A stretch of DNA of 63,548 nucleotides, counting the filler, from Asterionella formosa (taxonomy: Eukaryota): the NCBI GenBank assembly GCA_002256025.1. It is 6 parts of 6 records of this genome, joined end to end, with 100 filler letters (N's around TTAATTAATTAA, not from the genome) between each part and the next. Parts side by side here need not be neighbours in the genome. Positions count along the whole stretch, not along the records: positions 39,780 to 59,567 come from NKIB01003545.1; 5 more parts are not named here. One strand, written 5' to 3'. Below, one piece after another: positions 26,305-48,140 of this stretch; position 1 is the stretch's first letter; each line of letters begins with the position of its first letter. The translations under genes and the position numbers were made by a program. The notes under the pieces are model-generated. The model did no database searches and was not told where the DNA came from. It was given only the letters and a program-made list of their open reading frames with translations.

Positions 26305-28294
26305 CTATACAGGCTTGCTTGTTGGCCTTAAGAAGGGCTGTCTTGTTGGCATCACTGTTGGCTTTCCTATTGGCTTTCCTGTCGGCTTGCCTATAGGCTT
26401 TCCTGTCGGAGTAAGGACAGATGTTGGATTCTTGGTGATTGAAACTGGAGTAGTTGGTGCAGAAGTCACTGGAGCTGATGTAGTAGGTGCAGAAGTCATT
26501 GGAGCTGATGTAGTAGGTGCAGAAGTCACTGGAGCTGGTGTTGTAGGTGCAGAAGTCACTGGAGCTGGTGTAGTAGGTGCAGATGTCACTGGAGGCAAAA
26601 AATTAGGAGCTGAAGTTGCTCTAGGACATGTTGAAGTCTGGGTGTTCAAGCGAATTGATAGGATCATATACTTTGGTTCTGTGGAAGTGGCAGCCACCAT
26701 CTCACAAACATCAATGGTGTACAAACCAATCACAGTACTTTGATTGGCAGCAAGTGCAGCTAGCATCGATGATTCAGAAGTGCTACTTGGAGCTGTCGCA
26801 ATCGTGACCAAGTTTTGCTTCTCCTGTACTTGAAAGTTAAATCCAGTGGCAAGGTTGTACTGAATGTATAATTGGCCAACAATAATGATAACATATTCAT
26901 TGCGAGATGTAGGTGATGCCTTGGCATAGTCTACAAAACCTACAAGTTTGCCAGACCAGGCCCCACCTGTTGCTGGGTTTACAGTGATTTGTTTGTCAGC
27001 ATACCATCCAAGGACATAGTTCTTGTGCCCATTGAAGCACATTACTGGTGATCCAGTTCCAGAGTATGAGTAACCCATCATGCAACTCTGGTCATCGTAT
27101 GATTTACCATTCTCATTGGAGTGTTGAAGACCTAAGTTATGTCTGTCAGCAATGGATTAGAGTGAAAGATAAGAAAAAAAGAGCAATAGAAATTTTCATG
27201 TGTATAATATGCACCCTTGGACTTACCCAATTTCATGCATTTTTGCACTGAGACTCGAACACCATCCTGCATTATCAGATCAAGAAACAGAAGAGGATAG
27301 GTGGTGAGCCCTTTGGAAGAATCTACTGAATATTTTAATTACTGAGACTGCACTCACCATTGTTATAATATGAATATTGTCCTGGTACATATGCATAGGC
27401 GAGCCAATCTTTCGAACCGCCTGAATAGAAAGTCGTGCCGTATGGCATGCAAAACATGATGTTGGAGAAAGTGCTCCCGAGATCAGCAACACCAAGCAAA
27501 GCCTTAACCGCAGTTATCATGGAGTTTTCGAGGTCAAAGATGTTGGTGTTGTTGACGGTTGCAGGAAGTAGGATGTCAATAACTCCATTTGTCACCTTGT
27601 CTGGGTAACCACTTGCAGCAACAAATGTCAGTTTCCCAGCAGAGCATGAGCTGTACTGGGAAGCCATAGAGTACTGCTGACCTCCAGTACCAAAGGTTGC
27701 ATCTGCCAGGCTTGTAGACGAGGCTGATTGGGTGGATGAAGGGGCCGTGACACGAACAACAAGGACTGATCGGGATCCTGTTTGAGCTAAATGACGGTCA
27801 CGATTGGAAAGACTTGCAACAAAGTGAATCGCAGCATTCGGTGGAATAACAATGTAGTCTGGTTTTCCAAAATCTGTACGAATGGCAGAACCACCAATGA
27901 TGCAAATACTAGAAACGCCTGTGTCCAGCTTTTCCTTATGTGCAACGACAAAAGCTGTCGGGAGATTGATAGAATATGCCATCTCCGATTCTCCATCACC
28001 CTCCTGGGTCTCGTCAGTTATACAGCGGTAGGTTGAGGTGGGAACTCGATCAGCCATCATGACATGGACGACTCCCACATTACAGTAGAGACATTCTCCA
28101 ACTTGCTTTTCAACTCCGGGAAGGCCCTAAGATGAAGGGAATGACGAGAAGAATGTTATTTCCTGTTTCTATATAATACTTTAATGATAAACAAGCATTA
28201 AGTGCAATAACGGACTTACCGAGTCGTCCTGTGCAGTAGCGAGAACCAAAAGCAATGCCAATGCTGCACCGATGAATGGATGTCCAATTTTCAT
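26305..28294 (-). CDS. Secreted gametolysin-like metalloprotease (peptidase M11) with Pro/Thr-rich tail; exons 28294-28220, 28126-27358, 27266-27227, 27142-26305
   Basis: Signal peptide MKIGHPFIGAALALLLVLATA. Splicing rebuilds HEIGHNLGLQH, followed by YDDQSCMMGYS (Met-turn) and CFNGHKNYVLGWY. Three GT-AG introns keep the frame. Confidence 0.9.
26446..26593 (-). repeat. 30-bp coding tandem repeat (PVTSAPTTPA), about 5 units
   Basis: Repeats of ggagctg(a/g)tgtagtaggtgcagaagtcact within the M11 tail. Confidence 0.9.
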
Positions 28295-38290: not shown

Positions 38291-39779
38291 GCTCCAATTT
38301 TGCTGAAAAACTATTCTCATGGATAAGCATTGTGTCATGATCATTCCAGTCTGATGATTATACAACAATTTATGAAATCAATCACCAGTTCGTTGCAACG
38401 TTTTGATAGCCAATTATTATCGTCTACTTGGATAATTGGAACCAGAATCGATTTGAATTGTCCGAAGCTATTTTTCCTGTGGCCATGAGAGTTGCTTTCA
38501 TGATAACAGGCTTTATCTGTTATTGAGGCAAGGGTAATGACTCCTAAGATGAAATCATCACATTCAACTAATTGTTGAACATGAATATTTATCATAAATT
38601 CTTCATAGCTAAGGTCCTTTTGACGAATTGAAAGGAAGTCGATCCATGAAATGGTGCAGTCAGTCAACCCTTGCTATATTGTTAATTTTGATGAATGAAA
38701 TTGATTCGTCGAATTGTCAATTTATTAAAGTACATTCAGAGATGCCGGCAACGTTTCTGCGTTGCCTGATACCCAATTTTATTTTATTAAAAACAGGAAA
38801 ATGATTTTATGCAAACATCTCAGGTAGTACCGAAGGATCAACATGATAAATTGTAAAAAAACTATGTATGATTTCGAATTGAATTTTATATTTAATCTTT
38901 CACTTTCGCACGAAAATAAGTTGATTCGTTGCACGTACTCTGTGGATTGAAGTACATAAAAAATTATTTTGGAAAAAAACCTCTTGATGTGTTACTGCGG
39001 GGCCGCAACCTTGAATGAGCGAATCATTGTAAATTGAAGATCACGTATTTGTTATCGTAATCTCAGGTCATTTTGTAGGATTGAGACAAAGAGTATTAGT
39101 TGTAATAGCTTAATTGTAATGCATTAATTGAAGTTTCTTTCAGCACCATACTTATGATTTCAAATCATAAAACCTCTTTGAATACCAGAGGTAATTACTG
39201 CTTTAATTAAGCAATTTCATGTTAAGGATATTTGAAGCCTCTGATATACTCTGGAAGCTTTTTAGTCGCTCCTTATAGTACTTAGTTCCACATCTTCTAG
39301 AGAACGAACCGTTAAATCATACAATTTGCATGACCAACCAATAAACTCCAACGGACCAAGCTTGTTGAAGTAATCTTCTGTAACACCAAATAAGACAAGA
39401 AAATGTTTAGAACATCGAAGTAGAAGAATCAAAATGTTTTAACAGTAGAACAACACATCACGATTGAAAAATGTAGAGTTGATATATTTTTCTCGTGCTT
39501 TCTTATTTGTAGGTTCCATTCTATAATCATTCAGAAGTTGTGCATCACATCCACCTATTAAATGAACTCGAGCAAGAACATCATCAGTCCATAGGTGATA
39601 GGAATTGCTTGCTCTATCAATGAAACTTGCTTGAGCAAACGCATACAACTTGCATGCCCAACCAATAAACTCCGATGGANNNNNNNNNNNNNNNNNNNNN
39701 NNNNNNNNNNNNNNNNNNNNNNNTTAATTAATTAANNNNNNNNNNNNNNNNNNNNNNNNNNNNNNNNNNNNNNNNNNNN

Positions 39780-42070: not shown

Positions 42071-44039
42071 CACAACCAGCCCACCATTACACCCACGTCA
42101 AATCCGAATTCATTTTCAAGTTGTTGTTCATTGTCGTTTTGATTCTTGCTTATTCACTCTTGGAGGCTGAAATTAAATTCGAAATTTGTATCATTGAAAG
42201 TTGGGGGCGCAGCTGCAGGGGCAACAGGTCGAAGGAAGCATATGCAAATTGTTACCAAAGTGGTGCACAATTAACTTTGTTCTTTAGGGGAAGGTAGCTA
42301 CGTGCAGAGTATTCTGTAATGTTGACGACAATAAATAAGGTTTTGAACTGATAATCGAAACATGCAGCCCATCCAGCAAATCGTTGTTGTCACAAATAGT
42401 ACTTTCTAGAAAAATGAGCTTGGGCTGCCTCCAATGTTTGCTTCCATTAGGGTTAAGCTTATGGTTAGGCTTAGGCGGCTTAGGCTTGCGTAGTAAACAG
42501 TCTGAGCAAACTTCCATCTCTTGCCATGCTTTGCTTGCCTACTCCCTGCAAAAGCATCATTTTCATCTGTTTTCTGTAAAGGAATGCATTTTTTGCATTG
42601 CTTGCATTGCTTGTCAAGAAATCGAAAGCTCTGCAATATCGGTATCGGTAAGGAATTGCATGCAGGTCATCACTGATATCTTGCTTATCATCCACTTTTG
42701 CTAAATTTCTTTCTGTTGCCAGCCAGCACCATGAGGGAAAAAACGGTAATCTACAGTCTAAATTACGGGCTTTGACGGGCTTGCTTCGATTTATCGCTTA
42801 ATGAGCATGCTGTTTTTCCACGCCAAAGCCATACCAACATGAATTGCAGTTTAGCAACATGTAACAAGCACATTATAGCTACCTCATCTGGAAAGTGTGT
42901 GAGTCGATTTTGCGACGAAAAAGACAAGTTGCTTCAACTGGAGCAACAATGACATCACTTCTCAGGGAGTGACACCAAACCACAATTGCTAAATTCCTGA
43001 AATCAACAGTGATGCATGCTTTCGGACTGGAAGCAAATTAAACCACCAACGCATCTGAAATCCCTGTGAGTCAATTTCCAGCCAAAGATAGCTAGTACCT
43101 AGTTTATGCATAGAATTTGCTTCCCAATGCTGTGCATGACCATCAGGTCCTTCATAAGAATGTTAGTGTGTAGTGTGCAGCAGCCAAATTTTCTAGACAG
43201 CAGAGCTTTCTTTCAAAGGAAAAGCGGATGGATCACATTGCACTGGTCCAACAATAATTTATTTTAACTAGCTAATTTAACTAATTAACTTTATTGAGTT
43301 GTTTCTAGAGCTTGAAAGCAGCTGATTCCGAAGCTTGCTTCTTTAACAGGAACTTCAACACCACCAGTGCGTGGGGAAGGGAAAATCAAGAAGGAGGACA
43401 TTCCTACTATCATCAAGACCCCATTCCTTGGTGAAAGCGCTTTGTTACAAATTCCATCCTGGTCCGATGCGATGCGCACGCCTCTGGAAATTCCATACTG
43501 GTCCAATGCGCACGCTTCTGGACAATCATCAAACTGTAGTAGGTTGTGGTATGCATGGTGCTGTGCCGGTGGGGCTGGTATGATGGTATTCTTCTTCATA
43601 TCTTGTACAGAAGGCAGGTGCACCTACACCTAGCAAAGGAAAGATTGAGACTTGGGAGGAGGCATTCGATTTTTGTTCCTTTTGAGTGTTGGTGAAACTG
43701 GTCCGCTAAAGTTGATTGTCAAGATAGGTCTTGAGTGAGTCACGCTAGAACAAAAAACGGATTCAATAAGCAATCACGAAAGAGACTTTGAATACCCTAA
43801 CCCTAACAGTTTTGTGCCAACAAAATGACACCAGTGACAAATGTGGTTTTATCAAGTGTCCTGATTGGCTATAGTATAGGAAACAAGCTACATTATATGA
43901 ACACTTGATCCAATTTGGATAAATAGGAGATAAATTGGATATGTCTTCTGTGAATTAGGTTGATGATAAAACAAAAAAATGCATCATGATTGGATACTCT
44001 AAAAACCACTCAGGTGATACCTACCAACTCTTTAACCCT

Positions 44040-46193
44040 CTAACAAAGAAGGTGATCAAGAGCTGTGATGTAAAATGGACAGTTGAAAATATTGGAATCT
44101 AACCGTAGGTAATTGAGACTTGTCAAGAGTCCAATCTCTGTGGGTAGTGTGCCAGTAAGTTTATTGTTGTTCAAAAGTAGAGCATGGAGACTTGTCAAGT
44201 GTCCAATCTCTGTGGGTATTGTGCCATTGAAAGTATTGGAATGCAACCATAGAGATTGGACACTTGTTAAGAGTCCAATCTCTGTGGGAAGTGTGCCAGT
44301 GAAAGTATTGGAGGACAAAAGTAGAGCATTGAGACTCGTCAAGTGTCCAATCTCTGTGGGTAGTGTGCCATTGAAAGTATTGGAATGCAACCATAGAGAT
44401 TGGAGACTTGTTAAGAGTCCAATCTCTGTGGGAAGTGTGCCAGTGAAAGTATTGGAGAACAAAAGTAGAGAATTGAGACTTCTCAAAAGTCCAATCTCTG
44501 TGGGAAGTGTGCCAGTAAGAGAATTCCTATAAAAAACTAGAGTAGTGAGATTTGTCAAGAGTCCAATCTCTGTAGGTAAGTTGGATTCGCAAAGCCCCTC
44601 ATATGATAACTCAGTAGTGTTACAAGTATATAGTTTCCCACACACAAAAATTGAGTTGGTGCAACGCAAAGTGGTTGGGTTACTTGAAGGCTGACCAGTA
44701 GGATTGCTTGTAGGCTGGGTGGTAGGTAATCTTGTTGGTTGACTGGTAGGCCAAAATGGCGAAGCAGATGGTGAAGAAACAGGGTTCAAGGAATGGAATG
44801 GTGCAGGAAGCGTGCCAGTGAAAGTATTCTTGTCCAAATCTAGAAAATTGAGATTTGTCAATAGTCCAATCTCTGTGGGAAGTGTGCCATTGAATGAATT
44901 TCCGTACAAATTTAGATAATCGAGACTTGTCAACTTTCCAATCTCTGTGGGAAGTGTGCCACTGAAAGAATTTCCGTACAAAGATAGAAGATTGAGACTT
45001 ATCAGATTTCCAATATCTGTGGGAAGTGTGCCACTGAAAGAATTTCCGTACAAAGATAGAAGATTGAGACTTGTCAGATTTCCAATATCTGTGGGAAGTG
45101 TGCCAGTAAGTCCATTGTTGTCCAAATATAGAAGTTTCAGACTTGTCAAGAGTAAAATCTCTGTGGGAAATGTGCCATGGAGAGTATTGCCATTAAAATC
45201 TAAAAGAGAAAGACTTCTCAAGAGTCCAAACTCTGTGGGAAGTTTGCCAGCAAAACTATTGGATCTCAAGTAAAGAAAATTGAGACTTTCTTTCAAAAAT
45301 CCGATCTCTGTGGGAAGTTTGCCAGTGAAGAAATTTGAATTCAAAAATAGATTTATGAGACTTGTCAAGCGTCCAATCTCTGTGGGAAGTGTGCCAGTAA
45401 AAGCATTGTTATACAAACCTAGAAAATTGAGATTTGTCAACAGTCCAATCTCTGTGGGAAGCGAGCCATTGAAAAAATTGGAGTCCGAATTTAGAGAAAG
45501 GAGATTTGTCAAAAGTCCTATCTCTGTGGGAAGTGTGCCAGTAAGAGAATTTCTATAAAAAAGTAGAGTAGTGAGATTTGTCAAGAGTCCAATCTCCGTA
45601 GGTAAGTTGGATTCGCAAAGCCCATTAGACGATAAATCAGTAGTGTCACAAGTATATAGTTTCCCACACACAAAAATTGAGTTGGTGCAAGTTGGCTTGT
45701 TTATGGGCTGGATGGTGGGAAAACTGGTTGGCTTGTTTGTGGCTTGGATGGTAGGAAAACTAGTTGGCTTGGTGGTTGGCTTGCTTGTGGGCTGAATGGT
45801 AGGAAAACTAGTTGGCTTGCTTGTTGGTCTGATGGTAGGAAAACTAGTTGGCTTGGTGGTTGGCTTGCTTGTGGGCTGAATGGTAGGAAAACTAGTTGGC
45901 TTGCTTGTTGGTCTGATGGTTGGAAAACTAATTGGCTTGGTGGTTGGCTTGTTTGTGGTCTGGATGGTAGGAAAACTAGTTGGCTTGGTGGTTGGCTTGT
46001 TTGTAAGCAGGATGGAATAAGCATCTTGCGTTTTACTTTTAACTATTGTGGTAACTTGTGTCCCGTCTCCTACCACTTTGTCACGCCTCGCTTTATGGGT
46101 TGGAAATGTGTTTGGGTGAGCCTGTTGACAGAAAAGCAGGAAATTGACAAAACCAACACAGTAGCAAATAAGACATGGATATCTCACCATCAT
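44040..46193 (-). CDS. Probably secreted/surface leucine-rich-repeat protein: PT-repeat stalk, Cys cap + 11 LRRs, PT linker, Cys cap + 7 LRRs
   Basis: Intact intronless ORF (open from 46313). Likely start MMVRYPCLICYCVGFVNFLLFCQQA. Plant-type 24-aa consensus LPTEIGLLTxLxxLxLxxNxFxGT. Confidence 0.88.
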   Translation of the reverse strand: MMVRYPCLICYCVGFVNFLLFCQQAHPNTFPTHKARRDKVVGDGTQVTTIVKSKTQDAYSILLTNKPTTKPTSFPTIQTTNKPTTKPISFPTIRPTSKPTSFPTIQPTSKPTTKPTSFPTIRPTSKPTSFPTIQPTSKPTTKPTSFPTIQATNKPTSFPTIQPINKPTCTNSIFVCGKLYTCDTTDLSSNGLCESNLPTEIGLLTNLTTLLFYRNSLTGTLPTEIGLLTNLLSLNSDSNFFNGSLPTEIGLLTNLNFLGLYNNAFTGTLPTEIGRLTSLINLFLNSNFFTGKLPTEIGFLKESLNFLYLRSNSFAGKLPTEFGLLRSLSLLDFNGNTLHGTFPTEILLLTSLKLLYLDNNGLTGTLPTDIGNLTSLNLLSLYGNSFSGTLPTDIGNLISLNLLSLYGNSFSGTLPTEIGKLTSLDYLNLYGNSFNGTLPTEIGLLTNLNFLDLDKNTFTGTLPAPFHSLNPVSSPSASPFWPTSQPTRLPTTQPTSNPTGQPSSNPTTLRCTNSIFVCGKLYTCNTTELSYEGLCESNLPTEIGLLTNLTTLVFYRNSLTGTLPTEIGLLRSLNSLLLFSNTFTGTLPTEIGLLTSLQSLWLHSNTFNGTLPTEIGHLTSLNALLLSSNTFTGTLPTEIGLLTSVQSLWLHSNTFNGTIPTEIGHLTSLHALLLNNNKLTGTLPTEIGLLTSLNYLRLDSNIFNCPFYITALDHLLC

Positions 46194-46404
46194 GAAGAAA
46201 GAGGTTCGAATCTGCAGTACTGGAGTTCTGAAGATCATACAAGAAACTTGGGACATTCCCTTCGGCTGCAGTGCTACAAACCAAGATGTTAACGCATGAG
46301 AGGAAAAGTGCAAGTTTCATTTTGCAATGGAATGGCAATATCATATATTTCATGCTTGAACAAGCAAACCTCTCCGAATTAAAAGGATGTTGAATTTGTG
46401 ACAA

Positions 46405-47152
46405 GAAATGGTTTTGGAAATTTAAGGAAAACCATTACAAACAGCTCCGTGGTGCATCTTCCATTTTGGTATCTTTTTGACGTTGTCGACTTCCTAAGAG
46501 GTCGCTAGATTTACTTTTATGTACGTTGGCCACTACCCCCCTACAGACTTTCTATTTGGTGGGATTAACTGGTTCTCCTACCCCGTACATAGCACATGTT
46601 TGTTTCTGGTGTTTTTTTGACATTGTCGACTACCTAAGAGGTCCCTAAGAGGTCTATCTTGACTTGTATATACATGGTTTTGAAAATGAACATTTAAGAA
46701 AAAACCATTACAAACAGCTCCGTGGTGCATTTTCCATTTTTTTATCTTTTTGACATTGTCCACTTTCTAAGAGGTCTACTGGGTAGCTTGACTTGTATTA
46801 ACGTTGGACACTACCCCTACTGGCCGTAGGGAATTTCTATTTGGTGGTGATAACTGTTTCTTGTACTCTGCACATTGCTGCACAAACTCTTCTTTGCATA
46901 TGTTCCTTTTGGTATCTGTTTGACATTGTCGACTTCCTAAGAGGTCGCTAGATTTACTTTTATGTACGTTGGCCACTACCCCCCTACAGACTTTCTATTT
47001 GGTGGGATTAACTGGTTCTCCTACCCCGTACATAGCACATGTTTGTTTCTGGTGTTTTTTTGACATTGTCGACTACCTAAGAGGTCCCTTAGAGGTCTAG
47101 CTTGACTAGGTGCACATGTTCTTTTTTGGTATCTTTTTGACGTCATCGACTT
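46405..47152. repeat. Complex higher-order tandem array with a conserved ~28-bp core
   Basis: Core TTTGACATTGTCGACT(T/A)CCTAAGAGGTC at ~46476, 46616, 46749, 46919 and 47059, with a partial copy at ~47136. Confidence 0.85.
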
Positions 47153-47569: not shown

Positions 47570-48140
47570 TGCATGTCACCATAGTGAATCGTACTTGAGA
47601 TGTGCCACAATGGCCTTCTCCGTTTTGGAGCAGCTACAAAATAGTCTACAGCGATAACTCTAGCAAGTACAATATAGAAAAAGAAGCAAAGGATGAGCAG
47701 CTGTCATCGATTGAATTCGTAAATTCGTTAAAAAAACAGCTGTTGCATATTTTAACATTCAATGCATGTTGCCATAGTGAGTCAAAATTGAGATGTGCCA
47801 CAACGACCATCTCTTTTTCAGAGCGGATACAAATAGACTACAGCGATAACTCTAGCAAGTACAATATAGAAAAAGAAGCAAAGGATGAGCAGCTGTCATT
47901 GAATGAATTCGTAAAATTGTTTAGAAACAGCTGTTGCATATTTTAACATTCAATGCATGTCGCTGTAGTGAGTCAAAATTGAGATGTGCCGCAATGGCTG
48001 TCTCTTTTTCAGAGTGGCTACAAATAGTCTACAGCGATAACTCTAGCAAGTACAATGAAGAAAAAGAAGCAAAGGATGAGCAGCTGTCAACGATTGAATT
48101 AGTAAAATTGTTTAGAAACAGCTGTTGCATATTTTAACAT
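47570..48140. repeat. Tandem repeat, ~191-192-bp unit x3
   Basis: TAGCAAGTACAAT recurs at 47661, 47853 and 48044. Confidence 0.9.

What the first reader, a model, noticed from the sequence alone, without database searches (positions are those of the whole stretch)
44040..46000. LRR gene with constant cap plus variable 72-bp cassettes, reminiscent of a diversifying receptor
Seen: two solenoids begin with nearly the same cap and first repeat (CTNSIFVCGKLYTC.TT.LS..GLCESNLPTEIGLLTNLTTL.FYRNSLTGT), then diverge into 11 versus 7 repeats. A ~24-bp DNA core (CCAATCTCTGTGGGAAGTGTGCCA on +) recurs almost every 72 bp, while the exposed beta-strand codons vary. Single-unit and two-unit recent duplications are visible. 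Inference: cassette shuffling through the conserved core, analogous (not homologous) to lamprey VLR assembly, in a candidate algal recognition protein.
Basis: partly seen in the sequence, partly recalled or inferred. Interest (0 to 1): 0.6.

Follow-up and report, generated by a model that had tools for sequence, protein, structure and literature searches.

The report
Fast-evolving, truncated diatom LRR gene
A freshwater diatom gene encodes a secreted protein with two runs of leucine-rich repeats whose binding-face codons change unusually fast while the rest of each repeat stays almost constant, which is the ordinary way recognition-type gene families evolve and not a lamprey-like gene-assembly system.

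Summary
One minus-strand gene (44040-46320) encodes a signal peptide, a Pro/Thr-rich stalk, then two LRR solenoids of 11 and 7 units of 24 residues. Each solenoid starts with the same four-cysteine cap. The 24-nt core (codons for GTLPTEIG) occurs in 16 of 18 units and nowhere else in the window. Recent one-unit and two-unit tandem duplications are present.

The VLR-like reading is not supported. The reading frame is continuous in the germline and no donor cassette lies elsewhere in the 63.5-kb window. The "constant cap" is a 180-nt tract, 94% identical, between the two halves of the same gene.

What is supported is germline birth and death of units in register. It comes with diversifying selection on the five concave-face codons (omega about 4, against 0.6 elsewhere), replicated in a relative from a metagenome.

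New points: the 7-unit array is cut inside its last unit by an antisense Ty1/copia fragment. The gene also lacks the Cys-rich C-terminal tail that its full-length relative carries.

This scan already reported the same kind of pattern on other DNA of this genome (e1-7564790). It is a new member of a known kind, of modest interest.

The parts
46188..46320 (-). Exon 1: start codon and signal-peptide-like N-terminus (MKLALFLSCVNILVCSTAAEG...LHD), 44 codons plus 1 nt.
   Evidence: Reading frame. It is 85% nt identical over 141 nt to the 5' end of the intronless relative L002. Protein alignment. That it is a signal peptide is inferred from the hydrophobic stretch; no predictor was run.
46091..46187 (-). 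Inferred 97-nt intron (GT..AG) that joins exon 1 to the long frame.
   Evidence: Coordinates. Splicing here gives LHD-A-RRDKVVGDGTQVTT, which aligns with LHDVWRDRKEGDETQVTT of L002. No RNA evidence for this copy.
44040..46090 (-). Exon 2, ending at stop codon 44040-44042. With exon 1 the coding sequence is 2181 nt, or 727 codons.
45691..45995 (-). Pro/Thr-rich stalk repeats (PTSKPTSFPTIQ...), 84-nt period, 3.6 copies, 92% matches.
   Evidence: Tandem Repeats Finder. Pfam PT repeat PF04886, E 9e-17.
45606..45689 (-). Cap A: 28 codons with four cysteines (C-x6-C-x5-C-x10-C).
   Evidence: The model shows a beta-hairpin at model residues 9-18.
44811..45605 (-). LRR array A: 11 units of 72 nt; one is 75 nt (45243-45317).
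   Evidence: AlphaFold2 model of residues 205-530, mean pLDDT 90.7. The model matches plant LRR ectodomains.
44664..44810 (-). Linker between the arrays. Its 3' part is a short Pro/Thr region related to the stretch before the cap in L002.
   Evidence: L002 487-531 matches window 44751-44707 at 91%, and L002 692-1306 matches 44726-44112 at 76.5%. A contig of run X3 stops fitting at 44784, with 93 nt unlike the window. The junction to array A therefore has no independent support.
44580..44663 (-). Cap B, 78 of 84 nt identical to cap A.
   Evidence: A perfect 111-nt contig in run X3 covers 44541-44651.
44076..44579 (-). LRR array B: 7 units arranged as a three-fold two-unit repeat. The last unit is broken at about 44080-44084.
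   Evidence: The unit profile matches only positions 1-68 of the last unit, window 44147-44080.
43959..44099 (+). Fragment of a Ty1/copia-type retrotransposon polymerase (SH3-like domain) on the opposite strand. Its antisense supplies the last 14 codons and the stop codon of the LRR frame.
   Evidence: Pfam PF25597 SH3_retrovirus, E 1.3e-9, 38.3 bits against a cutoff of 27. A 296-nt contig of run X2 bridges the junction (43844-44139, 4 mismatches).
45510..45689 (-). Shared tract, copy A: cap, first unit and the first 8 codons of unit 2. It is 170 of 180 nt identical to 44484-44663.
   Evidence: Codon-by-codon comparison. Identity stops abruptly at the first Cys codon upstream and at codon 9 of unit 2 downstream. 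Cap pS is 0.054.

Best explanation
This is one germline gene of a diatom family of secreted proteins. The family layout is a signal peptide, a Pro/Thr-rich stalk, a cysteine cap, and a solenoid of plant-type 24-residue LRRs. The 72-nt units multiply and are lost by in-register unequal recombination or replication slippage, because all units share the same scaffold DNA. Selection favours amino-acid change at the five concave-face positions, so the binding surface diversifies while the scaffold stays the same. This copy has been rearranged in three ways. It carries a second stalk-remnant, cap and array in frame. The cap and first unit of the two halves were recently homogenised or duplicated. 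The 3' end was cut off inside the last unit by a Ty1/copia fragment, so the family's Cys-rich C-terminal tail is missing.

Shown: the anatomy, the duplications, the excess of non-synonymous change, the truncation and the fold. Inferred: the recombination mechanism, secretion, ligand binding, and whether this copy still functions.
For: Anatomy and family:
- Pfam finds LRR_14 (E 1.8e-52), LRR_1 and PT.
- The AlphaFold2 model has mean pLDDT 90.7. Strands fall at unit positions 13-15 and a short helix at positions 3-7.
- The best structural matches are plant LRR ectodomains MIK2, ERL1 and RGFR1, with TM 0.80-0.84 on the query and rmsd 0.9-1.9.

Relative L002:
- It has the same signal peptide, PT stalk and cap, then 13 units with the same scaffold codons.
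- These are followed by 4 units of another type and a C-terminal tail ending CSCCDTCY.

Scaffold conservation is not codon bias:
- The fixed codons CCC, GGC and CTA make up only 17%, 16% and 12% of their synonymous sets in 8 other frames of the window.
- The Leu positions use four different codons (CTT, TTG, CTC, CTA), each fixed at its own position.

Selection:
- Nei-Gojobori dN at concave positions 12, 13, 15, 17 and 18 is 1.14, against dS of 0.35 over all codons.
- Parsimony on a unit tree counts 62.2 non-synonymous changes on 11.9 sites against 41.8 synonymous changes on 18.0 sites. Omega is 2.26 at the concave positions and 0.52 elsewhere.
- My own two-partition codon model on 17 of 18 units (the broken unit was left out) gives omega 4.10 concave and 0.60 elsewhere. 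The likelihood-ratio statistic against omega = 1 is 31.5.
- Array A alone gives omega 3.37 (statistic 15.5). The 11 scaffold units of L002 give 4.13 (statistic 24.0).
- A control set of five non-concave variable positions gives 1.46 (statistic 2.0).

Turnover:
- Twin units and the 144-nt period are seen.
- Arrays A and B are not collinear beyond the first unit.

Truncation.

Other samples:
- Both caps occur as perfect contigs in run X3.
- The transposon junction occurs in run X2.
Against: - The ML and parsimony estimates assume a tree, and none of the estimates, pairwise counts included, allows for recombination between units, although recombination is part of the explanation itself. The alignment has only 24 codons.
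- The excess could partly reflect homogenisation or constraint of scaffold synonymous sites rather than faster change at concave sites.
- This copy's own expression is not shown.
- The missing C-terminal tail means it may be a young pseudogene.
- The junction between array A and the linker (about 44785-44810) has no independent support. One X3 contig departs from the window at 44784. The two-array form could therefore be strain-specific or an assembly join.
Confidence: 0.72

Rival explanations
1. Young pseudogene under neutral decay. The rearranged and truncated copy no longer functions. The pattern of variation was inherited from functional ancestors or reflects relaxed constraint.
For: The 3' end is replaced by a transposon fragment and the family's C-terminal tail is absent from the window. 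No contig of the polyA RNA run lies on 46083-46900, which holds the upstream region, exon 1 and the intron plus the first 8 nt of exon 2. The listed RNA pieces on the gene carry 5-11 mismatches, so they come from other copies.
Against: The frame stays open for 727 codons across both arrays. Omega outside the concave face is 0.5-0.6, so the scaffold has been under purifying selection. An RNA contig 94% identical spans the same transposon/LRR junction (43948-44135), so a copy with this end is present in an RNA library. This rival is compatible with the main explanation for the family as a whole; it concerns only this copy.
Confidence: 0.2
2. Programmed or somatic cassette assembly, VLR-like in effect. 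The conserved core guides copy-choice or recombination that rebuilds the array within a clone.
For: All units share a scaffold of identical codons. Run X1 laid 34,330 contigs and its RNA run X17 laid 12,419 contigs on the stretch at 90% likeness or more. Many of these fitted two places (21,864 and 8,129). Potential donor sequence is therefore plentiful somewhere in that sample.
Against: The germline gene is complete and in frame. No donor cassette lies in the window. Identical stretches of the gene, both caps included, occur in an independent run (X3), and the transposon junction occurs in another (X2). The joints seen are contig joints with sides of 20-33 nt at 90% likeness, which the tool itself says often come from repeats or other organisms. 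Within-array nearest neighbours fit simple tandem duplication.
Confidence: 0.03
3. The core is conserved for a function at the nucleic-acid level, such as a small-RNA target site shared by the family or a recombination signal, rather than by common descent.
For: Non-preferred codons are fixed in the core. Table 1 of PMC3341825 (passages read) notes that some repetitive LRR exons of Ectocarpus were predicted as miRNA targets.
Against: Scaffold synonymous sites are not frozen. pS is 0.21 within array A and 0.14 within array B, and 0.19 between arrays A and B and 0.25-0.27 against L002 units. This is close to the pS of 0.27-0.30 in the unique exon 1 and cap against L002. No extra constraint is therefore needed. 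No small-RNA data were available.
Confidence: 0.05

Closest known systems
Plant-type (24-residue) extracellular LRR domains of plant receptor kinases and receptor-like proteins (MIK2, ERL1, RGFR1, FLS2), and the evolution of plant resistance-gene LRRs by unequal crossing-over with diversifying selection on exposed residues
   Same: The 24-residue period and the LxxLxLxxNxFxGxLPxEIG consensus are the same. The fold matches: TM 0.80-0.84 on the query, 35-39% identity. Variation concentrates on the concave face with omega above 1. The introduction of PMC3341825 (passages read) describes diversifying selection, point mutation of variable residues and repeat-number change for plant resistance-gene LRRs.
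   Different: No transmembrane segment or kinase is present, and no plant LRRNT_2 cap is detected. The cap is a different four-cysteine motif. The Pro/Thr stalk lies N-terminal to the LRRs. The host is a diatom.
Highly internally conserved repeats of fungal NLRs (Podospora NWD/HET-E family), as described in PMC4986451
   Same: Repeats share a scaffold, are reshuffled or duplicated, and show positive selection on a few positions of the interaction surface (passages read; here).
   Different: That class is defined by about 85% amino-acid identity between repeats. Here the mean is 62%, range 46-96%. The repeats there are WD40, ANK or TPR in intracellular NLRs; here they are LRRs in a secreted protein with no NB domain.
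Ectocarpus LRR-ROCO and LRR-kinase genes with exon shuffling (PMC3341825)
   Same: Both are stramenopile algae with rapidly varying LRR arrays and positive selection on the concave face. That paper raised the same speculation about somatic recombination (abstract and passages read).
   Different: There each LRR is encoded by its own exon and is shuffled as an exon. Here 18 units lie in one uninterrupted exon. No ROC-COR or kinase domain is present.
Lamprey and hagfish variable lymphocyte receptors
   Same: Both have an LRR solenoid with an N-terminal cap and diversity on the concave face.
   Different: As I recall them, VLR germline genes are incomplete and are completed somatically from flanking cassettes. 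Here the germline frame is complete and no cassette flanks it in the window. The LRR type also differs (plant-type).
Diatom LRR gene expansions (Seminavis robusta, PMC7335047; Pseudo-nitzschia multistriata, PMC5485032)
   Same: LRR proteins are among the main tandem-duplicated families in S. robusta (passages read). Two LRR receptor-like kinases had Ka:Ks above 1 between Pseudo-nitzschia species (passages read). Diatom proteins are among the homologues at 41-43% identity.
   Different: Those passages do not describe unit-level scaffold conservation, the four-cysteine cap or the PT stalk. I did not read those papers in full or their supplements.

Membership tests
Plant-type (24-residue) LRR solenoid | Tandem units of 24 residues with consensus LxxLxxLxLxxNxLxGxIPxxLGxL | tested here: met
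   17 of 18 units have 24 residues and one has 25. Column counts. Pfam LRR_14 E 1.8e-52 and LRR_1 E 8.5e-24.
Plant-type (24-residue) LRR solenoid | Curved solenoid fold matching solved plant LRR ectodomains | tested here: met
   Model pLDDT 90.7. Foldseek top hits 8wei_A, 5xjo_A and 5hz0_B, E about 1e-21 to 1e-22, rmsd 0.9-1.9.
Plant LRR receptor kinase or receptor-like protein | Transmembrane segment, with or without a cytoplasmic kinase, after the LRRs, and an LRRNT_2 cap | tested here: not met
   No kinase and no LRRNT_2 in Pfam. The full-length relative L002 ends in a Cys-rich tail directly after its LRRs, with no kinase-sized region after them; a membrane segment was judged by eye only, no predictor was run. 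The window gene's own 3' end is cut.
VLR-type somatic assembly locus | Incomplete germline gene whose LRR-coding part is missing | tested here: not met
   Continuous 758-codon frame with both arrays.
VLR-type somatic assembly locus | Banks of donor LRR cassettes flanking the gene | tested here: not met
   0 core matches outside the gene. 0 unit-profile matches with E below 0.01 outside 44076-45605 in 63,548 nt. More distant DNA could not be searched.
VLR-type somatic assembly locus | Different assembled sequences in different cells of one individual or clone | not testable with these tools
   All four runs laid are kept as contigs, which drop rare variants.
Highly internally conserved repeats (fungal NLR type, PMC4986451) | Repeats about 85% or more identical in amino acids over at least 100 residues | tested here: not met
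   Mean unit identity is 0.60 in array A, 0.68 in array B and 0.62 overall. Only the twins reach 0.96.
Highly internally conserved repeats (fungal NLR type, PMC4986451) | Positive diversifying selection on a few positions of the interaction surface | tested here: met
   Omega at concave positions is 3.4-4.1, with likelihood-ratio statistics of 15.5-31.5. The control set gives 1.46.
Highly internally conserved repeats (fungal NLR type, PMC4986451) | Repeat-number polymorphism between strains | tested here: inconclusive
   Contigs of X2 and X3 cover only pieces of the arrays. One X3 contig departs from the window at 44784.
Ectocarpus-type LRR exon shuffling | Each LRR unit encoded by its own exon | tested here: not met
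   The 11 and 7 units lie in one open frame without interruption.

The most novel reading that the evidence does not exclude
The shared scaffold DNA lets units recombine in register during mitotic growth, across a very large scaffold-sharing LRR family. A diatom clone would then generate receptor diversity within its own lineage. That would be VLR-like in effect, though not in machinery, and is the idea that PMC3341825 raised for brown algae. The data do not exclude it, because only contigs were available.
Probability: 0.04. Interest if true: 0.8.

Novelty: new member of a known kind. Interest (0 to 1): 0.3.

Why it matters
Little is known about how diatoms recognise parasites, bacteria or mates. 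A secreted, stalk-borne LRR family whose binding face is under diversifying selection is a reasonable candidate set for such recognition in a freshwater diatom. The four-cysteine cap and PT stalk give a handle for collecting the family. This locus on its own adds an example to a pattern already described in plants, fungi and brown algae, and already noted elsewhere in this genome by this scan. It does not open a new mechanism.

Tried and rejected
- **Whole genome.** None is held, so no paralogue census or cassette-mosaic test was possible.
- **Earlier notes.** Look-ups by place near the finding, by sequence (cap, then four units) and by words gave nothing.
- **Protein search, array A region.** It returned only generic LRR proteins at 31-48% identity: plants, diatoms and bacteria.
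- **Protein search, cap alone (residues 196-250).** 11 candidates, none with E of 10 or better, limited to proteins of 416-1327 residues.
- **HMMER over 1.84 billion representatives, cap plus first unit.** 5,464 hits at E of 0.001 or better, driven by summed LRR stretches.
  - P0135 has a looser version of the first three cysteines. Three sequences (P0192, P0248, P0256) of unstated origin show a related first-LRR motif without those cysteines.
- **Metagenome scan.** 2 of 80 loci (L001, L002, the same gene in two samples) share the cap.
- **Contig joints.** Joints in run X1 and its RNA run X17 have sides of 20-33 nt at 90% likeness. I do not count them as rearrangements.
- **RNA cover.** None on 46083-46900, so no conclusion on expression.
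- **Summed depths over the units.** These are very high in X1 and X17, but the tool states they are not copy numbers.
- **Sub-unit mosaicism.** A Mantel test of left against right variable codons gave r = 0.235 (33 of 5000 permutations as high). After removing three twin units, r = 0.033 (1902 of 5000). This is uninformative, since either saturation or recombination would give it.
- **Missing C-terminal tail.** tblastn of the L002 C-terminus found only the gene's own LRRs.
- **Codon bias** as the cause of the fixed scaffold codons is rejected.
Full report
**What is there**

The minus strand carries a 758-codon open frame at 44040-46316. Pfam finds LRR_14 (E 1.8e-52), LRR_1, LRR_4, LRR_8 and the PT repeat (E 9e-17), and nothing else.

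The true start lies in another frame just upstream: MKLALFLSCVNILVCSTAAEG... at 46320-46188. A 97-nt GT..AG intron (46187-46091) joins it to the long frame, giving a coding sequence of 727 codons. I infer this gene model from an intronless relative, L002, found on a metagenome contig. L002 reads straight through the same junction: LHDVWRDRKEGDETQVTT against LHD-A-RRDKVVGDGTQVTT here.

Behind the signal-like start come, in order:
- Pro/Thr repeats with an 84-nt period, 3.6 copies and 92% matches.
- A 28-residue cap with four cysteines.
- 11 LRR units (array A).
- A 49-residue linker.
- The same cap again.
- 7 LRR units (array B).

Earlier notes of this scan call the genome a freshwater diatom. 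That fits the diatom proteins among the homologues and the freshwater and algal labels of the runs that hold the stretch.

**The observation**

- The core CCAATCTCTGTGGGAAGTGTGCCA is the reverse complement of the codons for G-T-L-P-T-E-I-G. It occurs 16 times with at most 3 mismatches, always inside the gene. None of 100 shuffles gave a match.
- A DNA profile of the unit finds exactly 18 units in the 63,548-nt window, all in the gene. No other match has E below 0.01 outside the gene.
- Units A407 and A431 differ at 1 of 72 nt, as do B628 and B676.
- Array B is a three-fold two-unit repeat, with period 144 and 89% matches.
- Codons at unit positions 2-6, 8, 11, 14, 16, 19, 23 and 24 are nearly fixed, third bases included. 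Positions 12, 13, 15, 17 and 18 each carry 5-10 different amino acids among the 18 units.

**Fold**

An AlphaFold2 model of residues 205-530 has mean pLDDT 90.7. It places a short strand at unit positions 13-15 and a short helix at positions 3-7. The variable positions 12, 13, 15, 17 and 18 are therefore the x positions of LxxLxLxxN on the concave sheet, by standard LRR geometry (established knowledge). The conserved core forms the convex side. The closest solved structures are plant LRR ectodomains (MIK2, ERL1, RGFR1 and FLS2, E about 1e-21 to 1e-22; the first three with rmsd 0.9-1.9, FLS2 with rmsd 3.6-5.4).

**Why the scaffold DNA is alike**

It is not codon bias. The fixed codons CCC, GGC and CTA make up 17%, 16% and 12% of their synonymous sets in eight other frames of the window. 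The conserved Leu positions use four different codons (CTT, TTG, CTC, CTA), each fixed at its own position.

Nor is it exceptional freezing.
- Synonymous difference at 13 strictly conserved codons is pS 0.21 within array A and 0.14 within array B.
- It is 0.25-0.27 against the units of L002.
- That is about the same as the pS of 0.27-0.30 between this gene and L002 in the unique exon 1 and in the cap.

The units are therefore simply young, or kept alike by exchange. L002 carries the same scaffold codons in 13 units, followed by four units of an older, different type.

**Selection**

I fixed the five concave positions in advance from LRR geometry, then estimated selection three ways.
- Pairwise Nei-Gojobori counts give dN 1.14 at these positions, against dS 0.35 over all codons.
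- Parsimony on a FastTree of the 18 units counts 62.2 non-synonymous changes on 11.9 sites, against 41.8 synonymous changes on 18.0 sites. Omega is 2.26 at the concave positions and 0.52 elsewhere.
- I wrote a two-partition codon likelihood model with shared branch lengths. On 17 of 18 units (the broken last unit left out) it gives omega 4.10 concave and 0.60 elsewhere. The likelihood-ratio statistic against omega = 1 is 31.5.
- The same model gives 3.37 (statistic 15.5) for array A alone and 4.13 (statistic 24.0) for 11 units of L002.
- For a control set of five other variable positions (7, 9, 10, 20, 22) it gives 1.46 (statistic 2.0).

Caveats: the alignment has 24 codons, the trees come from the same data, and recombination between units is ignored.

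**Turnover, not collinearity**

Beyond the first unit, arrays A and B are not collinear. Nearest neighbours are mostly within the same array: A407/A431/A455, A286/A479, B604/B652/B700 and B628/B676. This fits repeated local tandem duplication in register. A test for sub-unit mosaicism was uninformative.

**The "constant cap"**

Cap, first unit and the first eight codons of unit 2 form a 180-nt tract with 10 differences between the two halves. Identity stops abruptly at both ends. Cap pS between the halves is 0.054, against 0.30 to L002. This looks like a recent gene-conversion tract or a recent duplication within one gene, not a constant module of a diversifying system.

The exact four-cysteine cap was found in only a few places:
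- twice in this gene;
- in L001/L002, that is 2 of 80 metagenome loci;
- in none of the other 266 stored proteins.

A word-based search with the cap alone found nothing. The second half of the cap resembles a degenerate first LRR, a motif also seen in unrelated LRR proteins.

**Truncation**

The last unit matches the unit profile only to position 68, at window 44080. From there the plus strand reads a Ty1/copia-type polymerase SH3-like domain (PF25597, E 1.3e-9, 43959-44099). Its antisense supplies the last 14 codons and the stop codon.

L002 ends with four further units and a tail ending CSCCDTCY. Nothing like that tail is found elsewhere in the window. So "7 repeats" is a cut array, and this copy lacks the family's C-terminal module.

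The junction is not an assembly artefact. A 296-nt contig of an independent run (X2) bridges it with 4 mismatches. An RNA contig of X17 that is 94% identical spans the same junction, which suggests a second, transcribed copy or a divergent allele.

**Other samples**

- Run X3 holds perfect contigs over both caps (44541-44651 and 45567-45677) and over other unique parts.
- One X3 contig fits 44622-44784 and then runs on for 93 nt unlike the window. The junction between array A and the linker is therefore not independently confirmed.
- At 90% likeness, 34,330 contigs of run X1 and 12,419 contigs of its polyA RNA run X17 lay on the stretch. Most lie on the units. This shows that units with this scaffold are very numerous in that sample and are present in RNA.
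- The tool warns that these depths are not copy numbers.
- This gene's own transcription is not shown.

**Against a VLR-like system**

The germline frame is complete, and no donor cassette lies within 44 kb on one side or 17 kb on the other. Identical sequence recurs in independent runs. Whether any variation arises within a clone cannot be judged from contigs.

**Comparison with what is known**

- Dyrka et al. (PMC4986451, passages read) describe repeats with high internal conservation, reshuffling and positive selection on the interaction surface in fungal NLRs. This gene works in a similar way but fails their identity criterion: 62% mean against about 85%.
- Zambounis et al. (PMC3341825, abstract and passages read) describe positive selection and exon shuffling of LRRs in Ectocarpus and speculate on somatic recombination. 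Here the units are not separate exons.
- Osuna-Cruz et al. (PMC7335047, passages read) list LRR proteins among the tandem-duplicated families of Seminavis.
- Basu et al. (PMC5485032, passages read) report two LRR receptor-like kinases with Ka:Ks above 1 in Pseudo-nitzschia.
- My three literature searches turned up no description of the four-cysteine cap with a PT stalk. They were not aimed at it, and I did not open any supplements.
- This scan has already reported the same kind of pattern on other DNA of this genome (e1-7564790).

**Verdict**

Noticed in passing
window 26305-28126 (-): Two adjacent open frames match gametolysin peptidase M11 (PF05548, E 7.2e-6 and 8.2e-4; the second, 18.9 bits, lies below Pfam's cutoff of 21). 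The downstream frame ends in a Pro/Thr-rich repeat to which the PT stalk of L002 aligns (53% over 98 residues). This is probably one secreted metalloprotease gene with a stalk like that of the LRR gene.
   Followed up: partly
window 43300-44025: The flank 3' of the LRR gene is highly repeated in run X1: summed contig depth is 17,000-126,000, against about 700 for single contigs on unique parts. It carries the copia fragment. No long open frame remains, so it is probably decayed transposon debris.
   Followed up: partly
window 42447-42487 and 43796-43810: Short runs of telomere-like hexamers lie inside the contig: TTAGGG/TTAGGC variants, and CCCTAACCCTAAC on the other strand. The telomere motif is recalled, not tested.
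   Followed up: no
window 46464-46898: Contigs of three runs (X1, X3, X2) join 46898 back to 46464. Either a tandem repeat of about 435 nt upstream of the gene has one more copy there, or the window's copy number differs. The word CCTAAGAGGTC recurs at 46633 and 47076.
   Followed up: no
window 47570-47994: Tandem repeat of 192 nt, 2.2 copies, 88% matches. Overlapping frames repeat the peptide YSDNSSKYNIEKEAKDEQLS.
   Followed up: no
window near 39680-39723: A run of N (an assembly gap) shows as X in a translated frame, so the window is a scaffold, not one contig.
   Followed up: no
L002 (metagenome contig, 2494 nt), 20-2230: Intronless, full-length relative. It has two kinds of LRR units in one array: 13 with the shared scaffold codons, then 4 C-terminal units (IPSALG type) with different codons. 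A Cys-rich tail ending CSCCDTCY follows. Similar Cys-rich tails (for example ACGCCTKCTL, CEPQCCTLCRDVS) end several other LRR frames among the metagenome loci, which carry no organism label.
   Followed up: partly
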